Shown here piece after piece: positions 1,239 to 57,493 of a DNA stretch of 64,000 nt. The translations under genes and the position numbers were made by a program. The stretch covers positions 5,337 through 69,336 of the forward strand of contig JAKFFN010000113.1 of the NCBI GenBank assembly GCA_036675025.1, read 5' to 3'. Positions within the stretch are counted from its first letter, which is position 1. The number at the start of each line of letters is the position of its first letter. The DNA comes from Candidatus Sumerlaeales bacterium (GTDB lineage Bacteria; Sumerlaeota; Sumerlaeia; Sumerlaeales; Sumerlaeaceae). Under the pieces are notes generated by a model. The model was given only the letters and a program-made list of their open reading frames with translations. It searched no databases and was not told the origin of the DNA.

Positions 1239-1626
1239 TGGTGTCAGTCTGCTTTTTCGTTTTTGATACTGCAGAGCTGCTAAGTCTGCAATTCTCATGC
1301 CTTGGCACTTGAAACAATAAACCGAAGCATTTTCACGGCGGTGTTACTCACTATCCCTACCACGCCGGAGGCTTTTTTCATTTCAATGGCAGTGAAAAAC
1401 TCCTTCAAAGTCCAGTAGTTTTTGCTCAGAAAAAGTTCGACTGGAATCGGCAGCGGGCTATACCTCTGATGCGGGATCCCACTTTGAGCTGGTGAAGGTT
1501 AAATCCAACGGTCTGGTTTTGTCACTGTCCTGCCATGAATCCGGTTGACCCTGCTGCTGTGGATTAATGCGGAAAGAGGCTAAACTCCAGCCTCTCCCTT
1601 AATCCTACGGAATTAGGAGAGAGATA

Positions 1627-2370
1627 ATGATATCTCGCCCTGCCGTTTTAGTAGTAGAGGACGAAAAGGCTATCAGCGACCTGATAGCCTTTCACCTGGA
1701 GCAGTCCGGCTTCGAACCAGTGGTGGCCGGCGATGGAAGCCGCGCTCTAAGTCTTACTCGCGAAAGGCTACCCGCGCTGGTAATCCTGGACTTGATGTTG
1801 CCGGATATGGATGGTCTCGACATCTTAAAGCTGTTCCGGCAGCAGGACCGGAGTGCACGTCTGCCCATAATATTGCTAACGGCACGCGCCGAAGAAGCAG
1901 ACCGGATACTTGGCCTTGAGGTTGGCGCGGATGATTATGTGGTAAAACCGTTCTCGCCCCGTGAACTTATGCTTCGGGTTGAGCGGCTGATAGCTACCCG
2001 CGAGAATCAGGACGCCGCGCCGGTTCCCACGGTATTTGGTTGCCTGGAAATTGACGAGAATCGCTTCCGGGTGAGTGTTGCGGGTGAACCGATTGACATT
2101 TCTGCCACGGAAATGCGGCTTCTGTGTGAGCTGATCCGCTGCCGCGGAACAGTACTTTCCCGTGGCCAACTGCTGCAGAATGCCTGGGGTTATATGCCGA
2201 ATGTAACCGAACGCACCGTAGATACGCACGTTAAACGGCTTCGCCAGAAGCTTGGCCTCGCCTCTAATTACCTGGAAACTGTCCGTGGCGTAGGTTACCG
2301 CTGGGTCGAAGATCCGTCCCAAGCCGGTGAAGCCAACGCTGCGGGCAGCGCAGCAACCATTGCAGATTAA
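1627..2370 (+). CDS. OmpR/PhoB-family response regulator
   Basis: A GGAGAGAG RBS precedes the ATG. The receiver domain (VLVVEDE, LPDMDGL) and a winged-helix output domain (VDTHVKRLRQKL, GVGYRW) are both present. Confidence 0.9.
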   Translation: MISRPAVLVVEDEKAISDLIAFHLEQSGFEPVVAGDGSRALSLTRERLPALVILDLMLPDMDGLDILKLFRQQDRSARLPIILLTARAEEADRILGLEVGADDYVVKPFSPRELMLRVERLIATRENQDAAPVPTVFGCLEIDENRFRVSVAGEPIDISATEMRLLCELIRCRGTVLSRGQLLQNAWGYMPNVTERTVDTHVKRLRQKLGLASNYLETVRGVGYRWVEDPSQAGEANAAGSAATIAD

Positions 2371-2393
2371 TTGACATATACCGGAGGCCTGAC

Positions 2394-3488
2394 ATGGATA
2401 ACGAAAGCGCACTTTCCTTTGCCACAGATATGATTCATGCACTGCCTGAGTGCGTATGTCTGTACCTCGTCAGTCCGGATATCGTTATTCCGAATACCCG
2501 ATGGAAAATGGTAGTGGGTGATACCTACAGACTGGCTGACCTGAAGGGTATTGGCGTTAACGTTGAAGAACTGGGACCAGAGGTCCGCCATGCCAGCGAT
2601 TCTTCTCGCACTATCGACGTAGCTGTCAGCAACGAAATGATAGGCATCCGGAGGCTGCTGTTCCTTCCTATCCCAGGTCACAACGGCGTATTTGTGGTGT
2701 ATTTGCGCGATGAAACCGAAGTTCGACGCCTTGAGCAGATGCGCAAAGACTTTATCGCGAATGTGTCTCACGAGTTGCGGACTCCACTGACAGCCGTAAA
2801 AGGTTATATAGAAACTCTTCTAGACCCACAGTTCCTGACTATGGAGCGGGTGCGGCAGTTCCTTCCAGTTATATTTGAGCATACAGAGCGGCTGCATAAC
2901 CTCATGCTCGACCTGCTGAGCCTTAGCCGTCTGGAGAGCCCAAATACACGCATCGAATTATCTCCCCTTAACCTTGCCGAACAGCTTCACGATTCCATTG
3001 AAGCGGTTACGCCGCTTGCCCGCATGAAAAACGTGGGTGTGACACTGATTCCACCACCTGATGAAATCCTTGTACTGGCTAACACGGAACACATGGAGCG
3101 TATCCTGGTGAATCTGTTGGATAACGCCATAAAGTACAGTGACCCCAACGAGCAGATCACGGTATGGGCAGAGAGAAAGGGCGAATACGTCTGGACTTAC
3201 GTCAAAGATGAAGGTCAGGGCATAGCCCCAGAAGAAGTAGGCCGTGTGTTTGAAAGATTCTATCGAACCCGAAGCGCGCTGAGTGGCCGGGCGCGCGGTA
3301 GCGGGTTGGGCCTGGCGATAGTAAAACACATTGTACAGCAGCTCGGAGGCGAGATACGCGTTTCAAGCCGCCCGGGCGAAGGGTCCAACTTTTTTTTCAG
3401 TCTTCGCATAGCGCATCCTGAAGGTTCTGCCGCACCTAACGTGCTTGGGCATCAGCGGGACGACACAAAAACAGCGCGAACCGCCTGA
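2394..3488 (+). CDS. Sensor histidine kinase (soluble PAS-HisKA-HATPase, PhoR-like)
   Basis: A GGAGG RBS precedes the ATG. It has the H-box ANVSHELRTPL plus N, G1 and G2 blocks (DNAIKY, DEGQGI, GSGLGLAIVK). No N-terminal transmembrane segments are visible. It lies 23 nt downstream of the regulator. Confidence 0.85.
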   Translation: MDNESALSFATDMIHALPECVCLYLVSPDIVIPNTRWKMVVGDTYRLADLKGIGVNVEELGPEVRHASDSSRTIDVAVSNEMIGIRRLLFLPIPGHNGVFVVYLRDETEVRRLEQMRKDFIANVSHELRTPLTAVKGYIETLLDPQFLTMERVRQFLPVIFEHTERLHNLMLDLLSLSRLESPNTRIELSPLNLAEQLHDSIEAVTPLARMKNVGVTLIPPPDEILVLANTEHMERILVNLLDNAIKYSDPNEQITVWAERKGEYVWTYVKDEGQGIAPEEVGRVFERFYRTRSALSGRARGSGLGLAIVKHIVQQLGGEIRVSSRPGEGSNFFFSLRIAHPEGSAAPNVLGHQRDDTKTARTA

Positions 3489-3631: not shown

Positions 3632-5140
3632 ATGGCTCTTACCATGGACAAAATCGTATCCCTCTGCAAGAGGCGCGGTCTCATATTTCAATCGAGTGAG
3701 ATCTACGGCGGCCTCGGTAGCACTTGGGATTACGGTCCACTGGGCGTAGAGCTGAAGCGCAATGTGATGGATGCGTGGTGGCGCTCCATGGTATACGAGC
3801 GCGACGATATCGAAGGACTTGATGCATCAATTTTGATGGCGCCCCAAACCTGGATTGCCAGCGGACACGTAGCGAACTTCAGTGATCCGCTAGTCGATTG
3901 CAAAAGCTGTAAGCGCCGTTTCCGGGAAGATCACCTGCCGCAGTATTTCGGTGTGAAGCTGGTGCACGAAGGCGACGCCGCGGAGGAACTGGTTGTTGCC
4001 GGCCATGGCGATGATTTTGAATCGGTAGTAAAAAAGGTAAGGCAGGGCCGCGAGTGGAGCTCGAAGCCCAAAGGCTTTTGGACAGTGGCTGATGAACCAG
4101 TAGCAGTGCAGCCAGTTTGTCCAGACTGCGGCGGGGAACTCACAGAGCCTCGCCAGTTCAACCTTATGTTCGAAACCCATCTTGGCCCGGTTAAAGACAG
4201 TGCGGCGGTTACTTACCTGCGCCCGGAAACTGCGCAGGGGATTTTCGTAAACTTTGATAACGTACTTACAACCATGCGCCGCAAGCTACCGTTTGGTATC
4301 GCACAGATTGGTAAGAGCTTTCGCAATGAAATCACGCCCGGCAACTTCATATTCCGCACCCGTGAATTCGAGCAGATGGAACTGGAGTTCTTCTGCAAGC
4401 CGCCCGAGATGTGCGGTGAAGGGGAGTGGGATGACATGCAGTGGTGGGAGCACTGGAAAGAGGAGCGGTACAACTGGTACCTCCGCTACGGAATCCGGAA
4501 AGAAAAGCTACGCCTCCGCTCCCATGCATCTGATGAACTAGCCCACTATGCCAAAGGTTGTGTTGACGTAGAATACGAATTCCCCATCGGCTGGAGTGAG
4601 CTCGAAGGTATTGCCAACCGCACGGACTTTGATCTGAAGCAGCACATGGAATTGAGCAAGCGTGACCTGCGGTACTTTGACCAGGCACGGAACGAGAAAT
4701 ATCTGCCGTACGTGATAGAGCCGTCGGCCGGCGCTAACCGTTCGCTGCTGGCGTTCCTTTGTGATGCCTATCGGGAAGAGGCCGTTGAAGGCAAGGAAGC
4801 GCGCACATTCCTGTCGCTTCATTATGACCTGGCACCAATCAAATGCGCCGTGTTCCCGCTGCTGAAGAACAAGCCGGAACTGGTGGAGAAGGCCAAGAAA
4901 CTTGCACGCGACCTGAAGCCGCACTTCTACACGGTTTACGATGATACGGCCGCCATTGGTAAGCTGTATCGCCGCCAGGACGAAATTGGTACGCCGTTCT
5001 GCGTGACGGTGGACATGGACACCCTCAATGACGGGCAGGTGACGCTTCGCAACCGCGACACCATGCAGCAGGAGCGAATCCCCATGGAAAAGGTTCAGGG
5101 GATCGTGAGTGCTGCACTGGCAGAAGCGCGCAAAAAGTAA
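3632..5140 (+). CDS. glyQS: Glycine--tRNA ligase (class II, dimeric GlyQS type)
   Basis: The N-terminus [37 protein letters not shown] is a typical GlyQS start. It has class II motifs and a C-terminal anticodon-binding domain. The ORF-track start at 3596 is probably too far upstream. Confidence 0.88.
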
Positions 5141-5153
5141 TCATTTGGAGGGA

Positions 5154-5181
5154 GGGCCGGTAGCCGCCGGCCCTCTTTTTT
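5154..5181 (+). terminator. Rho-independent terminator after glyQS
   Basis: A GGGCCGG...CCGGCCC hairpin with a 7-bp GC stem is followed by TCTTTTTT. It abuts the NUDIX ATG at 5182. Confidence 0.7.
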
Positions 5182-5841
5182 ATGAACAAACCGGAATCAG
5201 ACTTCATCGAGCCTCGCTGGCTTGCCTGGGCAAAAGAATTACATTCCGTAGCGCAGAACGGTTTGCTTTACGTGCGCGACCCTTATGACCGGGAACGTTA
5301 TGAACAGGTCTTGCGAATAGCTGCCGAAATGATGGCGACCCAGTCGGGCAGTAAAGAGCTGGAGCCAGTGCTGGACTTACTTAAGCAGGACACCGGTTAC
5401 CTCACGCCTAAGGTCGACGTAAGAGCGGCCGTGTTTCGTGAGGGAAAGGTGCTGCTGGTAAGGGAGCTTCAAGACGAGGGACGCTGGACAATGCCCGGCG
5501 GCTGGGCCGACCCTAACGATACTCCGGCTATCGCTGCCGAACGCGAGGTGGTCGAAGAAACCGGGTACCGTGTTAAAGCGGAACGCGTCCTGGCAGTGTT
5601 TGATCGCAGCCAGCCGCACCACGGCCATTATCCCCCACACCCCTTGCACAGCTACAAAATCTTCTTCCTGTGCCGCCTGGTTGGTGGAAGTCCTGCTGAA
5701 AGCCATGAGACCGGGGAGTCGCGGTTTTTCGCAGAAGATGAATTGCCAGTCGACCTCTCAATCGCGCGCGTTACACTGCCACAGCTTACTCGGATTTTTG
5801 AACAACATCGAAGCGGCACCCTTGCTGCGGATTTTGACTAA
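5182..5841 (+). CDS. NUDIX hydrolase
   Basis: It has a Nudix box, GGWADPNDTPAIAAEREVVEETG, matching GX5EX7REUXEEXGU. Confidence 0.8.
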   Translation: MNKPESDFIEPRWLAWAKELHSVAQNGLLYVRDPYDRERYEQVLRIAAEMMATQSGSKELEPVLDLLKQDTGYLTPKVDVRAAVFREGKVLLVRELQDEGRWTMPGGWADPNDTPAIAAEREVVEETGYRVKAERVLAVFDRSQPHHGHYPPHPLHSYKIFFLCRLVGGSPAESHETGESRFFAEDELPVDLSIARVTLPQLTRIFEQHRSGTLAADFD

Positions 5842-52265: not shown

Positions 52266-55200
52266 TTACTCGTAGCGCTCATTTTCTATTAGCCTGAACT
52301 GTACGCGGTTTACTCCGGGGGTGCGGTGGAGGTTTTTGATGAGGTTGTCGGTCAGGCGGACTTTGATTTTGTCTGACAGGTTTACGCGAAGTTCGCTTTC
52401 GCGTTCTACTGTTGGTATTACCAGGTTCACGGGCTTGGTTCCCGGTTCGCTTTTCAGCAGCGTGTGGAGTTTTTCCATCAGGCCGTTACGGGCGGCGTCG
52501 TAGTCGAGGCGCAGCTCCAGGCGTTCTGTCTGCTTTTCGCGGAGTTCTTCCACCGGCATCACGTCGTTCGCCAGCATCTTCTTTACGCCTTCGCGGTCCT
52601 GGATCTTGCCGCGGAGCATCAACACCTGGTCTAGCGCGATATACTGCCGTGTTTTTTCGAACGTGCGCGAGAAGAAGACAACCTCGATGGTCGCGTTGAC
52701 GTCGCTCACTTCCACAAACGCCATGTTGCCGCCGTTGCGGTCGACCTTGTTAATGATCTTCGTCACCATTCCCACGATCGTCGCGAACTGCCCGTCTTCC
52801 GCCAGGCTGATCTTGCTGATGGGGAAATCGGCGAAATTCTGAATGTCTGCCTCGTAGGCGTCCAGCGGGTGACCGCTCACGAAGAAGCCGATCAGTTCCT
52901 TCTCATACTGGAGCCGCAGCTTGTCATCGATTTCCGGGATGTCGCGAAGCTGAACTGATCCCGTCTCATCTGCGCCGATTTCGCCTTCGCCGTCAGAGAA
53001 TGCATCAAAGAGGCTTGCCTGGCCGCGCGCTTTTTCCTGCGCCTTCACCTGCGCCAGGCTGATGCATTGTTCCGCAACTTCAAGCAACTGGCTGCGCCGG
53101 TGCCCCAGTGAGTCAAACGCTCCCACCTTGATCAGGCAGTCCAGCGTGTTCAGTCGAAGGAAAGCCGGGTCCAGGCGCTGGCAGAAGTCTTCGAAAGACG
53201 TATACTTGCCGTTCTTATCGCGCTCGGCCACCAGGCTTTCCACCACGGCCTCGCCAACGTTCTTGATCCCGGCTAATCCAAACCGCACTGACTTCTCACG
53301 CGGTGTAAAGTTCTTATCGCTGCCGTTCACATCCGGCCCCAGCACCTTAATGTCCAGTTCGCGCGCTTCTGCGAAATAGGTCACCATGTCTTCCACTTTG
53401 CCGCCGATGGCATTGGTCATCAGGGCGGCCATGTACTCGACAGGGTAGTGGGTTTTCAGGTAGGCTGTACGGAAGGAAATGATGGCGTAGGCAGCCGAGT
53501 GCGACTTGTTGAAACCGTATCCGGCGAAGTAGTCGATCTGCTGGAAAATGTGATCCGAAATTTTTGGATCGACGTTGTGATGCTCTTTCGCGCCCTCAAC
53601 GAACTGGACGCGGATTTTCGCCATCTCCTCGGCCTTCTTTTTACCCATGGCGCGGCGCATCAGGTCGGCGCCGCCGAGGGTAAAGCCGGCCAGTACCTGG
53701 GCGATTTTCATCACCTGTTCCTGGTAAAGGATGATTCCGTAGGTCTCCCTGAGGATATCTTCAAGCAGTGGGTGATCGTACTTCACTTCCTTGCGGCCGT
53801 GTTTGCGGTCAACGAAGTCTTCCACCATGCCGCTGCCGAGCGGACCCGGGCGATACAGCGCCAGCAAAGCCGTGATGTCTTCAAAACAGTTAGGGCGCAG
53901 GCTGCGCACCAGCGATGTCATGCCGCTCGATTCCAGCTGGAACACACCAAACGTGCGGCCTTCCGTCAGCAGGCGAAGCGTCGCGGGATCATCCAGCGGA
54001 ATTTCGGCCCAGTCCACTTCCACGCCGTGGTTCTTGCGGATGCTCTTCAGACAGTTCTCGATAACGGTGAGGTTCTTCAGGCCGAGGAAGTCCATCTTCA
54101 GCATGCCGATCTCTTCCACCGTCGTCATGGTGTACTGCGTGGCCATATCGGGGCTGTCGGCCGGCTTATACACCGGCACAAGATCGCTGATATCCTGGTC
54201 GCTGATAACCACGCCGGCCGCATGGGTGCTGGCGTGGCGGGCCATGCCTTCCATGCTCTTGGCGTAGTCCATCACCTTGCGGAGGGTTGCGTCTTCTTCG
54301 TATATCTTCTTCAGCTCGGGAATTGTCTCCAGCGCGGTCTCAAAGGTCGTCTTGCCCTTCTCGGCCTTCAGCAGCGTGGGGATCAGCTTTGCTACGCGGT
54401 CGACTTCCTGCAGCGGCACATTCATGGCGCGGCCCACGTCGCGAATCGCATTCTTCGGCTTCAGGGTTCCGAAGGTGATGATCTGCGCCACGTTCTTCTC
54501 GCCGTACTTGCGTTTCACGTACTCGATCACGCGGCCGCGGTTTTCGTAGCAGAAGTCGATATCAATATCAGGCATGCTGATACGCTCGGGGTTCAGGAAT
54601 CGCTCGAAGATCAGCCCGTGCTCGATGGGATCGATATCAGTAATTTCCAAACAGTAAGCCACCAGGCTGCCAGCCGCGCTGCCGCGACCCGGACCTACAG
54701 GAATGCCGTTTACCCTGGCGTAATGGATGAAATCCCACACGATAAGAAAGTACGAGCTGAAACCCATGCTCTGGATGCAGGCCAGCTCCATGTCCATGCG
54801 TTCCTTCTGAGAAGGAGTGGGCTCTTTGTACCGCTTCACCAGGCCTTCATAGGTCACCTGGCGCAGATACTCATCAATGGAAAGGCCGTCGGGCGGCTGG
54901 AACACCGGGAGCAGCTTCTGGTTAAATTTGATATCGCAATTGCAGCGCTCCGCCACGGCCAGCGTCTCGCGGCAAGCCTCCGGCATCTCTGCAAACACCT
55001 GGTACATCTCTTCCGCCGTCTTTACATAGAAGGCATCGCTGCTGAACTTGAAGCGCTTTTCATCCTGAAGCGTCTTGCCCGTCTGGATGCACAGGAGCAC
55101 ATCATGAAAGGCGGCATCTTCTTTCATGGTGTAGTGGCAGTCGTTGGTGGCCAACAGGGGAATCTGGTAATGCTTGGCAAACTCGCGCATGTACCGGATC

Positions 55201-55766
55201 ACGGTCTTTTGCTCCGGCAGGTCGTGATCCTGGATTTCAAAGTAGTAACGGTCGGGACCGAAGATCTGAAGATAGTCGTCGATGAGTTTCTTTGCTTTGT
55301 CTTCGCGGCCCTCTACCAGCGCTTCGGGGATTTCGCCTTTGAGGCAGCTGGAGGTAGCGATGACGCCCTTGCTGTACTTTGCCAGCATCTCGTGGTCGAT
55401 ACGCGGCTTGTAGTAATAGCCTTCGGTGTAGCCGATGCTGCTGAGCTTGGCGATGTTGAGGTAGCCTTCGTAACTATCGGCCAGGAGCAGCAGGTGGTTG
55501 GCTGATTTGCGCTCGGCCACGTCGCCGCGTTTCTGGCGACCTTCGGGCGCCATGTAAACCTCGCACCCGATGATGGGTTTGATGCCGTCTTTCTTGCACT
55601 GCTTGTAAAAGTTCACCGCGCCAAACATGTTGCCATGGTCGGTAAGCGCGACGGCGTTCATGCCGAGCTGGTGCAGGCGTTTTGTCAGCTGGTCAAAGCG
55701 ACAGGCACCATCCAGCAGACTGAACTCAGAGTGCAAATGTAAATGGACAAACTCAGGCTTACTCAC
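52266..55766 (-). CDS. dnaE: DNA polymerase III α subunit
   Basis: It is 1166 aa. The PHP domain HLHLHSEFSLLDGA is at the N-terminus. It has the polymerase core, OB fold and τ-binding region. Confidence 0.95.
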   Translation of the reverse strand: MSKPEFVHLHLHSEFSLLDGACRFDQLTKRLHQLGMNAVALTDHGNMFGAVNFYKQCKKDGIKPIIGCEVYMAPEGRQKRGDVAERKSANHLLLLADSYEGYLNIAKLSSIGYTEGYYYKPRIDHEMLAKYSKGVIATSSCLKGEIPEALVEGREDKAKKLIDDYLQIFGPDRYYFEIQDHDLPEQKTVIRYMREFAKHYQIPLLATNDCHYTMKEDAAFHDVLLCIQTGKTLQDEKRFKFSSDAFYVKTAEEMYQVFAEMPEACRETLAVAERCNCDIKFNQKLLPVFQPPDGLSIDEYLRQVTYEGLVKRYKEPTPSQKERMDMELACIQSMGFSSYFLIVWDFIHYARVNGIPVGPGRGSAAGSLVAYCLEITDIDPIEHGLIFERFLNPERISMPDIDIDFCYENRGRVIEYVKRKYGEKNVAQIITFGTLKPKNAIRDVGRAMNVPLQEVDRVAKLIPTLLKAEKGKTTFETALETIPELKKIYEEDATLRKVMDYAKSMEGMARHASTHAAGVVISDQDISDLVPVYKPADSPDMATQYTMTTVEEIGMLKMDFLGLKNLTVIENCLKSIRKNHGVEVDWAEIPLDDPATLRLLTEGRTFGVFQLESSGMTSLVRSLRPNCFEDITALLALYRPGPLGSGMVEDFVDRKHGRKEVKYDHPLLEDILRETYGIILYQEQVMKIAQVLAGFTLGGADLMRRAMGKKKAEEMAKIRVQFVEGAKEHHNVDPKISDHIFQQIDYFAGYGFNKSHSAAYAIISFRTAYLKTHYPVEYMAALMTNAIGGKVEDMVTYFAEARELDIKVLGPDVNGSDKNFTPREKSVRFGLAGIKNVGEAVVESLVAERDKNGKYTSFEDFCQRLDPAFLRLNTLDCLIKVGAFDSLGHRRSQLLEVAEQCISLAQVKAQEKARGQASLFDAFSDGEGEIGADETGSVQLRDIPEIDDKLRLQYEKELIGFFVSGHPLDAYEADIQNFADFPISKISLAEDGQFATIVGMVTKIINKVDRNGGNMAFVEVSDVNATIEVVFFSRTFEKTRQYIALDQVLMLRGKIQDREGVKKMLANDVMPVEELREKQTERLELRLDYDAARNGLMEKLHTLLKSEPGTKPVNLVIPTVERESELRVNLSDKIKVRLTDNLIKNLHRTPGVNRVQFRLIENERYE

Positions 55767-55823
55767 GGGAACAACAGACCTCGATAAACTTCGAGAGGCA
55801 ACTACAGAAGATAAGAAATAATT

Positions 55824-55856
55824 GCCGCAAAAAGGCGCAAAAGGCGCAAAAAAGGC
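55824..55856. repeat. Left arm of imperfect inverted repeat flanking the GxxExxY gene (contains 3× GCGCAAAAAG)
   Basis: The arm reads GCCGCAAAAAGGCGCAAAAGGCGCAAAAAAGGC. The reverse complement of 56317..56348 is GCCGCAAAAAAGCACAAAAGGCGCAAAAAAAA. Confidence 0.6.
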
Positions 55857-55926
55857 ATCGGAAAATTCTGGATTCTTTACCTTGCCTGCTTATTCTTTGG
55901 GTGAAATTTCTCAGTGAGGAAGCATA

Positions 55927-56316
55927 TTGGAACCTGCTAAAGATCCTATTTTTCAGCTATGCGATACAATAAGGGAAACTTCATTTGCGCTGCATTCGTA
56001 CCTGCGGCACGGACAGATGGAAAAGGTTTATGAAAATGGATTAGTCCATCGATTACGGAAATTTGGCTATCATGTGGAGCAGCAGTTTCCCATTGCAGTA
56101 CGAGACGAAGATGGTACGATTCTAGGTGATTTCTTTGCTGATGTCTTTGTCCAGTCTGAAATTGTTGTTGAACTAAAGGCGTGTAGAAACCTATGTGATG
56201 AGCACGTGGCTCAACTGCTTGGCTACCTAAGGGCATCGAACCTGGAACACGGCTTGTTGATCAACTTCGGTGCACCAAAGCTTCAAATCAAGAAGCTTGC
56301 ACTGTCTCATGCCTAG
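55927..56316 (+). CDS. GxxExxY-family protein
   Basis: It has the signature GQMEKVY. It ends with the typical HGLLINFG block. It starts at a TTG with a GAGGAAG RBS. Confidence 0.8.
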   Translation: MEPAKDPIFQLCDTIRETSFALHSYLRHGQMEKVYENGLVHRLRKFGYHVEQQFPIAVRDEDGTILGDFFADVFVQSEIVVELKACRNLCDEHVAQLLGYLRASNLEHGLLINFGAPKLQIKKLALSHA

Positions 56317-56348
56317 TTTTTTTTGCGCCTTTTGTGCTTTTTTGCGGC
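56317..56348. repeat. Right arm of inverted repeat flanking the GxxExxY gene
   Basis: The arm TTTTTTTTGCGCCTTTTGTGCTTTTTTGCGGC lies immediately after the stop codon. Confidence 0.6.
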
Positions 56349-56416
56349 TAAATTTTGTTGCCTTGCCAAACGACATGTTCAATATATGATCTTAGCCTGT
56401 TTAAAGGGGAGTAGCT

Positions 56417-57340
56417 ATGCGTGCTTTATGGGGACTAGGCTTGATAAGTCTTTCTGCTGTTGTTTCGGCTGATATCATTCATTTAGATTCCGGTAAGTCC
56501 ATCCAGGGTGTTGTGGTTCAGGAGACTGCTTCTCAGCTTCAGGTGGAGACTTCTGCTGGGATCATGCGGTTTCAGCGGGGAGAGGTTTCGCGGATTGATC
56601 GTGATAATGCGCAGGTGGTGGCAACCCTGCAGAAACTTGTGGCGTCCGGCGAGGGGACTGAAGCTGTCGACCGGATCAGCCGCCTTGATCGCACCCGGTT
56701 TTCTGCCGCGGAACTGGCCACTGTAGATCAACTGGCCGCGCAGGTGAATCAGCAGTCGGCGTTATCGGCGGCGCAGACCGTGCACCAGCAGGACATGAAA
56801 GTTGTGGGCGAGGCGGCGGCCGTTTTCCAGAAACTGGGCTGGCGCGAAAGCGCTGCGCACCTTGAGCATGCATGTGCTGCTGCCCAGGTGCCTCTCATAA
56901 ATTCCCAGGTTGCCCTTGTGGAACTCTATGCGGCAAACGCCACATATCCTGAGGCCATGGATTTCTCGACAAAACTGGACGGTTATATGGCCGGAGGATC
57001 AACGGCTGTGTACCAGCAGGCACTGGCTTCTGCCCGCCAGAAGTTTGACCAGCGAATTGATCAGCTTAGGATCGACAAAGAGAAGCGCGACCAGGCGTTT
57101 ACGTCCGCCGGTGAAGCCCGGGCCCGGCTTGACCAGGCCGCCCAACAGCGCGCCCAGGCGGCTGCGGTGCAGGGTGCACGCATAGCCGCGGCAAATCCGA
57201 ACAAGTTTAAGCCGAAGGCCGCTGATCTGGGAAAGATTGAAGCTGCCAAAAAATCCCGCGCTGCCGCATTGACCCGCGAGGCCATGGATAAGGCAGGCGT
57301 AAAGATGAACTGCCAGGGCGGCGTTTGCCCTTCTCGGTAA
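56417..57340 (+). CDS. Secreted hypothetical protein, Ala/Gln-rich coiled-coil-like
   Basis: It has a signal peptide (MRALWGLGLISLSAVVSA) and an AAGGGGAG RBS. The C-terminal half is low-complexity Q/A-rich. Confidence 0.55.
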   Translation: MRALWGLGLISLSAVVSADIIHLDSGKSIQGVVVQETASQLQVETSAGIMRFQRGEVSRIDRDNAQVVATLQKLVASGEGTEAVDRISRLDRTRFSAAELATVDQLAAQVNQQSALSAAQTVHQQDMKVVGEAAAVFQKLGWRESAAHLEHACAAAQVPLINSQVALVELYAANATYPEAMDFSTKLDGYMAGGSTAVYQQALASARQKFDQRIDQLRIDKEKRDQAFTSAGEARARLDQAAQQRAQAAAVQGARIAAANPNKFKPKAADLGKIEAAKKSRAAALTREAMDKAGVKMNCQGGVCPSR

Positions 57341-57405: not shown

Positions 57406-57493
57406 TGGTGCCGGAGACAGGACTTGAACCTGCACAGCCTTGCGACTACTAGAACCTGAATCTAGCGCGTCTGCCAATTCCGCCACTCCGGCA
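57406..57493 (-). tRNA. tRNA-Leu (anticodon CAG), 88 nt incl. encoded CCA
   Basis: The minus-strand sequence is GCCGGAGTGGCGGAATTGGCAGACGCGCTAGATTCAGGTTCTAGTAGTCGCAAGGCTGTGCAGGTTCAAGTCCTGTCTCCGGCACCA. It has a 7-bp acceptor stem, a long variable arm, the anticodon loop TTCAGGT and a GTTCAAGTC T-loop. It closely matches the D and anticodon arms of E. coli leu tRNA(CAG). Confidence 0.9.

What the first reader, a model, noticed from the sequence alone, without database searches (positions are those of the whole stretch)
55824..56348. GxxExxY gene bracketed by ~32-bp A-rich inverted repeats (three tandem GCGCAAAAAG units), wedged between dnaE and tRNA-Leu
Left arm: GCCGCAAAAAGGCGCAAAAGGCGCAAAAAAGGC (55824-55856). 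Reverse complement of the right arm (56317-56348): GCCGCAAAAAAGCACAAAAGGCGCAAAAAAAA. The arms bracket the 390-bp ORF almost exactly; the right arm begins at the base after the stop. GxxExxY proteins are the family found inside 23S rRNA intervening sequences and other selfish insertions. A long-range stem enclosing the ORF is the same topology as an IVS. Here the element sits in a protein-coding intergenic spacer near a tRNA, a classic insertion hotspot. This suggests a small mobile or excisable cassette, or an RNA-level stem that regulates expression.
Basis: seen in the sequence. Interest (0 to 1): 0.55.

Follow-up and report, generated by a model that had tools for sequence, protein, structure and literature searches.

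The report
Small nuclease gene inside conserved hairpin
A 129-residue nuclease gene is enclosed by two matching 33-base arms, and the same gene-plus-arms unit, along with many gene-less hairpins built from the same arms, recurs in at least five bacterial phyla, so this looks like an undescribed family of small mobile or repeat elements that resembles the intervening sequences of ribosomal RNA.

Summary
A GxxExxY/PDDEXK_3 gene (55927-56316, +) is bracketed by inverted arms (55824-56856 region left arm 55824-55856; right arm 56316-56348). Each arm is three ~10-nt GCRCAAAAAG units. As RNA they fold into an uninterrupted 33-bp stem. This is not chance and not a local promoter/terminator pair. In 24 of 26 homologous loci from Planctomycetota, Acidobacteriota, Verrucomicrobiota, Geobacteraceae and other MAGs, the gene carries the same arms with the same sequence. 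The outer end is sharp (GCC invariant) and the two arms co-vary. Searching with the arm alone finds mostly gene-less hairpins with 0-113 nt loops, sitting in tight intergenic gaps. One hairpin is nested inside another. Two distant GxxExxY subfamilies carry different arms with the same three-unit design. PF05635 "23S rRNA IVS protein" genes do too. The protein keeps an intact D..ExK site, and its closest solved folds are Cas4/RecB-type nucleases. My best reading is a compact, horizontally spread element whose arms are recognition sites for its own nuclease (inferred). In transcripts the arms would form an RNase III-type stem, as in an rRNA IVS (inferred). The tRNA-hotspot idea is not supported. 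No Rfam family or paper I could search describes this.

The parts
55819..56352 (+). Whole cassette: left arm, 5' spacer, GxxExxY ORF, right arm (about 530 bp). GC is 0.44 against about 0.57 in the flanks.
   Evidence: The nhmmer arm profile hits 55819-55854 (+) and 56318-56352 (-), each at E = 3e-07. The unit is identical in a 915-bp Logan contig, L001.
55824..55856 (+). Left (5', A-rich) arm. Three tandem units: GCCGCAAAAAG (55824-55834), GCGCAAAAG (55835-55843) and GCGCAAAAAAG (55844-55854). The outer end GCC is invariant in the family.
   Evidence: The arm is 57 nt from the dnaE start codon.
55857..55926 (+). 70-nt spacer or 5' leader between the left arm and the start codon. It contains the SD-like GAGGAAG at 55916-55922. 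This spacer is absent in minimal relatives, where the arm abuts or overlaps the start codon.
   Evidence: dist_to_aa1 ranges from -14 to +246 nt among loci. No sigma-70-like promoter was found here.
55927..56316 (+). GxxExxY / PDDEXK_3 gene, 129 aa, TTG start. Carries the motif G29-x-x-E32-x-x-Y35 and the catalytic D72...E82-x-K84.
56316..56348 (+). Right (3', T-rich) arm, the complement of the left arm. It begins at the last base of the stop codon and pairs with 55824-55856 over 33 positions (29 Watson-Crick and 4 G-U in the sense RNA).

Best explanation
The feature is one copy of a compact, horizontally spread genetic element. It consists of a small PD-(D/E)XK (GxxExxY) nuclease gene bounded by element-specific terminal arms, each an array of three ~10-bp units.

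Shown here. Gene and arms travel together across phyla. The arm sequence is conserved, has a sharp outer end, and co-varies between the two arms. Different GxxExxY subfamilies carry different arms of the same design. The same arms occur far more often as gene-less hairpins in tight intergenic gaps, and sometimes nested in one another. Gene copies range from conserved to decayed.

Inferred. The three-unit arms are binding and cleavage sites for the element's own nuclease. That nuclease moves or copies the gene-bearing unit and, in trans, the gene-less hairpins, much as a transposase serves MITEs or a RAYT serves REPINs. Whenever the inverted arms are transcribed through, they fold into a ~33-bp double-stranded RNA stem. 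RNase III probably cuts this stem, as it cuts a 23S rRNA intervening sequence. That would free the flanking host transcript and make insertion between tightly packed genes tolerable.

In this genome (Candidatus Sumerlaeaceae) the copy sits in a variable region upstream of dnaE. It looks recently acquired because of its low GC3. It is the only copy in the 64 kb available.
For: (1) Association of gene and arms. 22 of 26 loci encoding homologues of at least 55% identity have both arms by an nhmmer arm profile, and 24 of 26 when the helix search is included. The loci come from Planctomycetota, Acidobacteriota, Verrucomicrobiota, Geobacteraceae and a delta-proteobacterial MAG.

(2) Sequence conservation with a sharp end. 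GCC is invariant in 38 of 38 arms. The consensus is (AATA)GCCRCAAARAGGCACAAAAGRCRCAAAAA.

(3) The arms co-evolve. Within a locus, the left arm and the reverse complement of the right arm are 84.6% identical, against 70.9% between loci (permutation p < 1e-4). 88.2% of cells are paired against 78.7% in shuffles. 19 of 32 pairs show double changes. 63 compensatory cells are seen against 22 +/- 4, with 0 of 500 shuffles reaching that. Slid controls give about 50%.

(4) Subfamily-specific arms of the same architecture. The L028 type has ATCATGTCG-ATCATGTAA-ATCCTGTCG paired with GACAGGATC-GACAGGATT-GACATGATG. The L029 type has AACCACGGATT-AACACGGATTT-TCACGGATT.

(5) Gene-less derivatives. In 88 arm-seeded loci there are 153 arms and 44 adjacent +/- pairs, 39 of them with loops of 0-113 nt. 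Only 3 GxxExxY genes are present, and all 3 lie inside arm pairs.

(6) Signs of movement as a unit. One hairpin is nested in the loop of another, and each pair carries its own matched variant (L082). Lineage-specific arm variants are shared by the gene's arms and by nearby gene-less hairpins (L010, L013). Insertion sites differ within one family, Pyrinomonadaceae. Cargo is variable between arms: a 281-aa ORF, Lipoprotein_16, AbiGi and DUF5655.

(7) Selfish-element signatures. ORF GC is below the flanks in every locus. Pseudogenised copies occur in L025, L010 and L017. The protein family has a phylum-mixed distribution, with the best non-self hit only 72-75% identical and coming from Planctomycetes, Chloroflexota and Methanosarcinaceae. 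Steczkiewicz 2012 reports 'multiple transfers' for this family (PMC3424549).

(8) Intact nuclease. D72, E82 and K84 are invariant, and the fold neighbours are Cas4, RecB and Dna2 nucleases.

(9) RNA stem. A 33-bp helix appears in the MFE and centroid structures. The precedent is the Coxiella IVS, with a 28-bp terminal stem cut by RNase III and three tandem heptamers (PMC4990558).
Against: No step of the mobility mechanism is shown.

- No target-site duplication was found. The frequent flanking TA is part of the palindrome, as L101 shows (ATCAGCC...GGCTGAT).
- No precise empty site for this window's copy was recovered. The closest syntenic relative, L030, has arm-like sequences and different cargo rather than a clean empty site.
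- A 125-aa PD-(D/E)XK protein is not a known transposase type.
- In Pyrinomonadaceae the cassette has stayed at one site. Its divergence (71-80% aa) is similar to that of the flanking genes (56-84%). That argues for long vertical persistence and purifying selection rather than frequent jumping.
- The window holds only one copy and no gene-less hairpins.
- Mismatches between arms show no excess of G-U over A-C on the sense strand (29 versus 26), so selection on the RNA stem specifically is not demonstrated.
- Co-variation of the two arms would also follow from a shared protein specificity or from common descent, without any pairing.
- About 45 arms in the arm-seeded set have no detectable partner.
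Confidence: 0.5

Rival explanations
1. A domesticated REP-like system. The hairpins are host-useful extragenic palindromes that protect mRNA 3' ends, attenuate transcription or organise DNA. The GxxExxY nuclease is a vertically inherited, single-copy caretaker that maintains and spreads them, as proposed for RAYTs and REPINs. It differs from the best explanation mainly in who benefits and in how rarely anything moves.
For: Gene-less hairpins lie 0-10 nt from stop codons, mostly between tandem (11) or convergent (6) genes and rarely between divergent genes (1). The cassette is syntenic in four Pyrinomonadaceae genomes, with divergence like that of its neighbours. The gene is flanked by its own repeats in inverted orientation.
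Against: Many copies are pseudogenes. Every copy has lower GC than its host. Distribution across phyla implies horizontal transfer. This window's copy lies between divergent genes, not at a 3' end, and has no accompanying hairpins. A single arm is not self-complementary, unlike a REP unit.
Confidence: 0.17
2. An RNA-level device only. The arms exist to form a long stem in the mRNA. The stem controls the gene's own expression or stability by sequestering the start region, by RNase III processing, or by protecting against exonucleases. The protein has an unrelated cellular role such as defence or repair and does not act on the arms.
For: A 33-bp uninterrupted sense-strand helix is predicted. In minimal cassettes the left arm overlaps the start codon and the right arm overlaps the stop codon (for example L008 and L016). 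Pairing is conserved with compensatory changes. The IVS precedent applies.
Against: Sequence, not just pairing, is conserved across phyla, with a sharp invariant outer end. There is no G-U over A-C bias on the sense strand. The arms are mostly found without any gene. In the L029-type subfamily the arms on either side of the gene are direct repeats and cannot enclose it in a stem. Each arm has a three-unit internal periodicity that a stem does not require. In this window the SD and start codon lie 60-70 nt from the stem.
Confidence: 0.17
3. Operator arrays. The three-unit arms are binding sites through which the protein, or a host factor, regulates transcription of the cassette and its neighbours. 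No mobility is involved, and the inverted arrangement is incidental.
For: The arms contain three tandem units at about one helical turn (9-11 bp), and their sequence is subfamily-specific. The units are phased A-tracts next to the divergent dnaE and 307-aa promoter region.
Against: This does not explain gene-less hairpins in 3' intergenic gaps far from any GxxExxY gene, nested hairpins, variable cargo between arms, or cross-phylum co-transfer. The protein has a conserved nuclease active site rather than a known DNA-binding regulator fold.
Confidence: 0.08
4. A tRNA-targeted genomic islet. The cassette arrived by integrase-mediated insertion at tRNA-Leu, and the arms are incidental.
For: The tRNA-Leu to dnaE interval differs between relatives. 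The window has GxxExxY plus a 307-aa ORF, and L030 has an NTase_sub_bind fragment. Other relatives have restriction-modification, TIR, RT or OLD genes upstream of dnaE.
Against: There is no integrase and no direct repeat of the tRNA 3' end. The cassette is 1.06 kb from the tRNA and separated from it by a gene with host-like GC. The same cassette sits in many unrelated, tRNA-free contexts elsewhere.
Confidence: 0.03
5. A chance or low-complexity artefact: an A-rich upstream region and a T-rich terminator region that happen to be complementary.
For: The arms are A/T-tract rich. The region is AT-rich relative to the genome.
Against: Shuffle controls fail to reproduce the signal. The identical motif flanks homologues in several phyla. 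Covariation is present. No canonical terminator or promoter was detected at the arms.
Confidence: 0.01

Closest known systems
ORF-bearing intervening sequences (IVS) of 23S rRNA (Coxiella, Leptospira and others)
   Same: Both are elements of about 430-530 nt. [quoted passage not shown] Short tandem repeats lie in or next to the arm. The ORF is often decaying. Mobility is long suspected but unproven. ORF-less hairpin versions exist (PMC4990558; ORF-less IVSs from my own knowledge of the Salmonella and Yersinia IVS literature). Here, PF05635 genes in L168 and L171 show the same arm design outside rRNA.
   Different: This element is not in rRNA. It lies in a protein-gene spacer, and the window has no rRNA. 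Its ORF is a PD-(D/E)XK nuclease, whereas the documented IVS ORF is the four-helix-bundle S23p (PF05635). RNase III excision has not been tested here. The arm sequence is conserved across phyla, which has not been reported for IVS stems.
REP/REPIN elements and their RAYT transposases (own knowledge: Nunvar 2010; Bertels & Rainey 2011; Ton-Hoang 2012)
   Same: A single gene is flanked by its cognate repeats in inverted orientation. The same repeats are dispersed, gene-less, as inverted pairs in extragenic gaps, mostly at 3' ends. The repeat type matches the protein subfamily. The gene can be inherited vertically for a long time.
   Different: The protein is a ~125-aa PD-(D/E)XK nuclease, not a HUH/Y1 transposase. 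Each arm is a three-unit direct-repeat array rather than a small palindrome. The element and its arm sequence are shared across phyla. No biochemical link between protein and repeat is known.
MITEs processed as RNA hairpins, such as Neisseria Correia elements (own knowledge)
   Same: Both are short elements with ~26-33-bp terminal inverted repeats, present in many intergenic copies, co-transcribed with neighbours, and able to form RNase III substrates.
   Different: Correia elements have a TA target duplication, no associated gene, and are confined to one genus. Here no duplication was found, a cognate gene exists, and the family spans phyla.
Free-standing or intron-borne PD-(D/E)XK homing endonuclease genes, such as I-Ssp6803I (own knowledge)
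   Same: Both are small PD-(D/E)XK nucleases encoded by selfish insertions that sit where they do least harm, such as loops of structured RNA or intergenic spacers.
   Different: Homing endonuclease genes are not bounded by conserved inverted arms, and they split a single recognition site. Here the loops into which genes or hairpins are inserted vary in sequence and length.

Membership tests
GxxExxY / PDDEXK_3 protein family (TIGR04256, PF13366) | Profile match above the curated cut-off over the full length | tested here: met
   PF13366 scores 101.9 bits (cut-off 22), covering residues 10-123 of 129. TIGR04256 scores 111.1 bits (cut-off 35).
GxxExxY / PDDEXK_3 protein family (TIGR04256, PF13366) | GxxExxY motif and PD-(D/E)XK catalytic residues (D ... 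E-x-K) on a restriction-endonuclease-like fold | tested here: met
23S rRNA intervening sequence (IVS) | Inserted in a helix of the 23S rRNA gene (helices 9, 25 or 45) | tested here: not met
   The cassette lies between dnaE and a 307-aa ORF. The Rfam gathering scan of the whole window finds only tRNA-Leu.
23S rRNA intervening sequence (IVS) | Terminal inverted repeats forming a long stem (about 25-30 bp) that encloses the element | tested here: met
   A 33-bp predicted stem. Compare 28 bp in Coxiella.
23S rRNA intervening sequence (IVS) | The ORF, when present, belongs to the S23p / PF05635 four-helix-bundle family | tested here: not met
   The ORF is PF13366, with no PF05635 match. PF05635 genes with analogous arms were seen only in other loci, L168 and L171.
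23S rRNA intervening sequence (IVS) | Excised from the transcript by RNase III | not testable with these tools
Transposon or MITE with terminal inverted repeats | Conserved terminal inverted repeats with defined ends | tested here: met
   GCC is invariant at the outer end of 38 of 38 arms, and the arms are about 32 nt.
Transposon or MITE with terminal inverted repeats | Target-site duplication flanking the element | tested here: not met
   No direct repeat flanks the arms. The common TA is part of the palindrome, as in ATCAGCC...GGCTGAT of L101.
Transposon or MITE with terminal inverted repeats | Multiple dispersed copies and presence/absence polymorphism | tested here: inconclusive
   Many gene-less copies occur in metagenomes and in other genomes' loci, and a nested copy occurs in L082. 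There is only one copy in this 64-kb window, and no precise empty site was recovered.
Transposon or MITE with terminal inverted repeats | Encodes, or is served by, a recognised transposase | tested here: not met
   The only ORF is a 129-aa PD-(D/E)XK protein with no transposase family match. Whether it acts as the mobilising nuclease is untested.
REP/REPIN-RAYT system | The gene is flanked by its own repeat type in inverted orientation, and the same repeats are dispersed in extragenic space | tested here: met
   This holds for the family. In this window only the flanking pair is present.
REP/REPIN-RAYT system | The protein is a HUH (Y1) transposase of the IS200/IS605 type, and the repeat unit is itself a short palindrome | tested here: not met
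   The protein is PD-(D/E)XK. Each arm is three direct units and is not self-complementary.

The most novel reading that the evidence does not exclude
GxxExxY proteins, and by parallel the PF05635 'IVS proteins', are the cognate nucleic-acid-handling proteins of a large, undescribed class of cross-phylum palindromic repeat elements. Each protein subfamily recognises its own three-unit arm. It mobilises or maintains gene-bearing cassettes and swarms of gene-less hairpins, as a PD-(D/E)XK counterpart of the RAYT/REPIN relationship. On this reading, ORF-bearing rRNA intervening sequences are simply members of this class that landed in rRNA helices.
Probability: 0.35. Interest if true: 0.85.

Novelty: new variant of a known kind. 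Interest (0 to 1): 0.66.

Why it matters
GxxExxY/PDDEXK_3 is a very large family. More than 7,900 clusters reached E <= 1e-10 in each of two searches. Its function is listed as unknown (PMC3424549). The origin and mobility of ORF-bearing rRNA intervening sequences have been open questions since the early 1990s (PMC4990558).

Here these genes come with conserved, subfamily-specific, three-unit arms, and the arms also exist as abundant gene-less hairpins. That gives a concrete, testable substrate for the protein, namely its own arm units as DNA or RNA. It also gives a way to annotate a widespread class of intergenic hairpins in soil and aquatic bacteria, which no Rfam family matched. And it offers a possible common explanation for IVS-like elements inside and outside rRNA.

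If the nuclease is sequence-programmable through about 10-bp units, it could also interest tool builders.

For genome annotation the practical message is that such cassettes sit inside operons (leuD-leuB, upstream of holA, upstream of dnaE) and should not be read as operon members.

Tried and rejected
- Rfam, window cassette at E <= 10: only noise, PreQ1 and a plastid UTR at E about 7.
- Rfam, a gene-less hairpin (L018): nothing.
- Rfam, whole window at gathering threshold: only tRNA-Leu.
- Viral origin: 8 arm matches in 2.9 million viral contigs, and no GxxExxY relative there. Rejected.
- tRNA-targeted integration: no tRNA-derived repeat and no integrase. Rejected.
- Target-site duplication: none found. 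The flanking TA belongs to the palindrome.
- G-U versus A-C asymmetry as a test for RNA-level selection: 29 versus 26, uninformative.
- Promoter/terminator reading of the arms: no sigma-70-like site or intrinsic terminator at the arms. The only good promoter-like site (56363-56390) lies just outside the right arm and serves the next gene.
- CRISPR-like array for the three tandem arms in L071: rejected, because the 'spacers' are identical and so this is a 76-nt tandem duplication.
- Sequence search of the PDB: no hit at E <= 1.
- Literature: 'GxxExxY' appears in 3 papers, none about flanking repeats. 'PDDEXK_3' appears in one. The arm sequences appear in no paper.
- Source genome: not among the genome contigs representatives, so genome-wide copy number could not be counted.
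- A first duplexfold scan over long flanks gave uninterpretable long duplexes, and a pure-Python dynamic-programming scan timed out. Both were replaced by the ungapped helix scan.
Full report
**1. Checking the observation**

On the minus strand, dnaE ends its 5' part at 55766 (ORF 52266-55766). 57 nt further on lies GCCGCAAAAAGGCGCAAAAGGCGCAAAAAAGGC (55824-55856), which is three tandem units of 11, 9 and 11 nt. A 129-codon ORF follows at 55927-56316, with a TTG start and GAGGAAG 4 nt upstream. It matches PF13366 PDDEXK_3 (3.6e-29) and TIGR04256 GxxExxY (3.8e-32) over its full length. The complement of the first arm begins at the last base of the stop codon and runs to 56348.

The repeat finder reports the pair, extended to 46 nt at 80%. 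Folded as RNA, 55800-56370 closes a 33-bp uninterrupted helix in both the MFE and centroid structures (z = -4.1). The arms alone give -54.3 kcal/mol, against -24 +/- 3.5 for shuffles. The motif is unique in the 64-kb window, and there is no paralogue of the gene. The cassette is compositionally foreign, with GC3 of 0.42 against 0.75 for dnaE and about 0.6 for the next two genes.

One correction is needed. A 307-aa ORF (56417-57340) with host-like GC separates the cassette from tRNA-Leu(CAG) at 57406-57492. That ORF has a promoter-like site at 56363-56390.

**2. The arms belong to the gene, in many phyla**

The protein family is very large and taxonomically mixed. 7,948 clusters reached E <= 1e-10. 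The best non-identical hits are only 72-75% identical and come from Planctomycetes, Chloroflexota and even Methanosarcinaceae.

A scan of one genome per species returned 28 loci (L002-L029) from Planctomycetota, Acidobacteriota (Pyrinomonadaceae), Verrucomicrobiota, Geobacteraceae and others. I searched the 300 nt upstream against the 250 nt downstream of each ORF for the best helix. Flanking inverted repeats stood far above shuffles in about 20 loci (z of 7-40).

The key result is that the arm sequence is the same everywhere: (AATA)GCCRCAAARAGGCACAAAAGRCRCAAAAA upstream and its complement just after the stop. An nhmmer profile of the arms finds both arms, in inverted orientation, around 22 of the 26 genes of at least 55% identity. 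Including the helix search raises this to 24 of 26.

The outer end is sharp. GCC is invariant in 38 of 38 arms, and the flanks beyond AATA are unrelated. In the most compact copies the arm overlaps the start codon (L008...CAAAAATGAAAGACCCG) or the stop codon, and the whole unit is about 430-450 bp. The ORF has lower GC than its host in every locus.

**3. The two arms co-vary**

Within a locus, the left arm and the reverse complement of the right arm are 84.6% identical, against 70.9% between loci (permutation p < 1e-4). For example, GCCGC versus GCCAC is concordant in 17 of 19 loci.

On a 19-locus alignment:
- 88.2% of cells are paired, against 78.7% after shuffling partners.
- 19 of 32 pairs show changes on both sides.
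- 63 compensatory cells are seen against 22 +/- 4, and 0 of 500 shuffles reach that.
- Sliding the partner by 1-3 columns drops pairing to about 50%.

This shows that the arms evolve together. It does not show at what level. Mismatches on the sense strand are G-U 29 times and A-C 26 times. So the window's four G-U and no A-C is not a family trait, and selection on the sense RNA specifically is not demonstrated. Shared recognition by one protein, or common descent of both ends, would give the same co-variation.

**4. The arms are mostly found without the gene**

Searching collections with GCCRCAAARAGGCRCAAAAG gave only 8 viral contigs.

In the 88 loci fetched (517 kb), the profile finds 153 arms and 44 adjacent +/- pairs:
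- 39 pairs have loops of only 0-113 nt. These are 65-170-nt hairpins with ~30-36-bp stems.
- Only three GxxExxY genes occur in these loci, and all three lie inside arm pairs.
- About 45 arms have no detectable partner.

Where ORF calls are unambiguous, the hairpins fill very tight gaps, 0-10 nt from stop codons. They lie between tandem (11) or convergent (6) genes and rarely between divergent genes (1).

Gene-less hairpins also lie near the gene in the gene-seeded loci (L010, L013, L018, L025). They share lineage-specific arm variants with the gene's own arms. In L082 one hairpin sits inside the loop of another, and each pair carries its own matched variant. That is what insertion of one complete unit into another would look like.

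Neither the window cassette nor a gene-less hairpin matches any Rfam 15 family. No searchable paper prints these sequences.

**5. Other subfamilies carry other arms of the same design**

The two distant homologues in the first set lack the GCACAAAAAG arms but have their own.

- L028 (41% identity): ATCATGTCG-ATCATGTAA-ATCCTGTCG lies upstream and GACAGGATC-GACAGGATT-GACATGATG lies directly after the stop, in inverted orientation. A gene-less hairpin of the same arms lies upstream.
- L029 (35% identity): AACCACGGATT-AACACGGATTT-TCACGGATTA lies on both sides, in direct orientation.

A third homologue search with these two proteins, followed by contig look-ups, confirmed both arm types in independent loci.

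In the L029 type the layout is [arm+]-GxxExxY-[arm+]-cargo-[arm-]. It is inserted between leuD and leuB, and the leuD stop codon lies inside the first arm unit. The cargo differs between loci: a 281-aa ORF, Lipoprotein_16 plus a 144-aa ORF, or AbiGi. So the outer boundaries are again inverted, but the gene alone is not always enclosed in a stem.

In the same operons, PF05635 '23S rRNA IVS protein' genes sit between leuA/leuC or leuC/leuD. Each is bracketed by its own inverted arms made of short tandem units: TTAGGATTT in L168 and CCCTAAA/CCCTATA in L171.

Three tandem units of about 9-11 nt per arm, with a sequence that tracks the protein subfamily, is the pattern expected of protein-binding sites.

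**6. The protein**

**7. History of copies**

dnaE homologues place the host in Candidatus Sumerlaeaceae.

The closest syntenic relative, L030 (dnaE 82% aa), keeps the 799-aa gene, tRNA-Leu and dnaE. Between tRNA-Leu and dnaE, however, it has a truncated NTase_sub_bind ORF. A degenerate arm lies at the same place, about 46 nt from the dnaE start, and a good arm lies after the ORF. Both are in the same orientation. Three other relatives have restriction-modification, TIR, RT or OLD genes, or unrelated genes, upstream of dnaE. So this is a variable region, but there is no tRNA-derived repeat or integrase.

In four Pyrinomonadaceae genomes the cassette sits at one site, between a lipoprotein-like gene and a holA-like gene. 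It starts at the upstream stop codon. GxxExxY identity is 71-80%, against 56-84% for the flanking proteins. That indicates long vertical persistence. Other Pyrinomonadaceae copies are at other sites. The copies in L025 (three in-frame stops), L010 and L017 are decaying.

**8. Interpretation**

Established here:
- The finding is one member of a conserved family of gene-plus-arms elements spread across phyla.
- The family has abundant gene-less hairpin relatives.
- It is not a chance repeat, not a promoter/terminator pair, and not a tRNA islet.

Inferred: the arms are recognition sites for the element's own nuclease, which moves or maintains both the cassettes and the hairpins. When transcribed, the inverted arms give a ~33-bp dsRNA stem that RNase III would cut. 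RNase III does this for the Coxiella IVS, which is 428-444 nt, has a 28-bp terminal stem, has three tandem heptamers before its ORF, and has a decaying ORF (PMC4990558).

I put 0.5 on this combined reading. The main rivals are:
- a domesticated REP/RAYT-like arrangement, supported by the 3'-end bias of the hairpins and the vertical persistence;
- a purely RNA-level device;
- operator arrays.

Evidence against strong claims of mobility: no target duplication, no clean empty site for this copy, no known transposase type, and only one copy in this window.

**9. Comparison with known systems, and novelty**

The element has the topology of an ORF-bearing rRNA IVS, but it is not in rRNA and carries a different ORF family, so it is not a member of that class as defined. 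It resembles REPIN-RAYT in the relationship between gene and repeats, but it fails the defining protein and repeat-unit features. It resembles MITEs such as Correia elements in size and hairpin form, but it lacks a target duplication and is not genus-restricted.

Steczkiewicz et al. list PF13366 as function unknown with multiple transfers (PMC3424549). 'GxxExxY' occurs in three searchable papers, none about flanking repeats. I therefore rate it a new variant of a known kind, with interest 0.66.

The most novel reading not excluded is that GxxExxY (and PF05635) proteins are the cognate proteins of a large class of cross-phylum palindromic repeat elements, of which rRNA IVSs are a special case. 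I give that a probability of about 0.35.

Noticed in passing
L168 446-940 and L171 940-1555: PF05635 (23S_rRNA_IVP, four-helix-bundle) genes are inserted between leu operon genes (leuC/leuD and leuA/leuC). Each is bracketed by its own inverted arms made of short tandem units: TTAGGATTT in L168, and TAGGGTA / CCCTAAA x5 in L171. This is the same cassette design as for GxxExxY.
   Followed up: partly
L162-L167, L168, L171-L172 (about 1440-3080 and 3950-5260): L029-type GxxExxY elements sit between leuD and leuB as [arm+]-GxxExxY-[arm+]-cargo-[arm-]. The cargo is variable: a 281-aa ORF with no Pfam match, Lipoprotein_16 plus a 144-aa ORF, or AbiGi (PF10899). The leuD stop codon lies inside the first arm unit.
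   Followed up: partly
L030 4150-5000 (relative of the window's genome, GCA_038243585.1): The tRNA-Leu to dnaE interval is syntenic but carries a truncated NTase_sub_bind (PF08780, 79 aa) ORF in place of GxxExxY plus the 307-aa gene. An arm-like sequence lies about 46 nt from the dnaE start, and a good arm lies at 4290-4322. Both are A-rich on the same strand, so they are direct rather than inverted.
   Followed up: partly
L031 1-4700, L033 1-4700, L032 1-4800: In other Sumerlaeaceae relatives (dnaE 81-83% aa), the region upstream of dnaE holds type I restriction-modification genes with TIR, reverse-transcriptase or OLD-like genes, or unrelated genes. The dnaE-upstream region is a variable, defence-rich spot in this lineage.
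   Followed up: no
L025 4985-5390, L010 2548-2945, L017 547-933: These GxxExxY copies have in-frame stop codons. There are three in Stieleria marina, at least two of them at positions where relatives have Tyr codons. The flanking arms are still intact, so these are apparent pseudogenes.
   Followed up: partly
L082 3560-3745: A complete hairpin with GCCAC/GCAC-type arms is nested in the loop of another hairpin with GCCGC/GCGC-type arms. L082 carries 7 arms in 12.4 kb.
   Followed up: partly
L019 4762-4837 and 5420-5495: This cassette has an unusually long inverted repeat: 76 nt, 69 Watson-Crick pairs, z about 40. It starts with the usual GGCCGCAAAAAAGCGCAAG and then continues into unrelated GC-rich sequence.
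   Followed up: no
L005 3956-5453: A two-gene cargo. A 311-aa DUF5655 protein (4008-4943) and GxxExxY (4992-5378) lie together between a left arm (3956-3980) and two right arms (5384-5416 and 5419-5453).
   Followed up: partly
L170 1100-2110: In this L028-type locus, a pair of arms plus a duplicated ORF 5' end interrupts the gene. The called 154-aa product is a fusion, which suggests recombination at the arms.
   Followed up: no
L071 2265-2470: Three tandem 76-nt units each contain one arm plus an identical 44-nt segment. This is a tandem duplication, not a CRISPR array.
   Followed up: yes
window 56417-57340: A 307-aa ORF with a signal-peptide-like N-terminus has only sub-threshold similarity to Leptospira-type lipoprotein N-terminal domains (NF047433, 28 bits against a cut-off of 43). 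It is absent from the syntenic relative L030. A promoter-like site, TTGCCA-16-TATGAT, lies at 56363-56390.
   Followed up: partly
L004 3042-5125, L006, L011, L017: In four Pyrinomonadaceae genomes the cassette lies between a 181-aa lipoprotein-like gene and a holA-like (DNA polymerase III delta) gene. In the window it lies next to dnaE. Proximity to a replication gene in two unrelated lineages may be coincidence.
   Followed up: no
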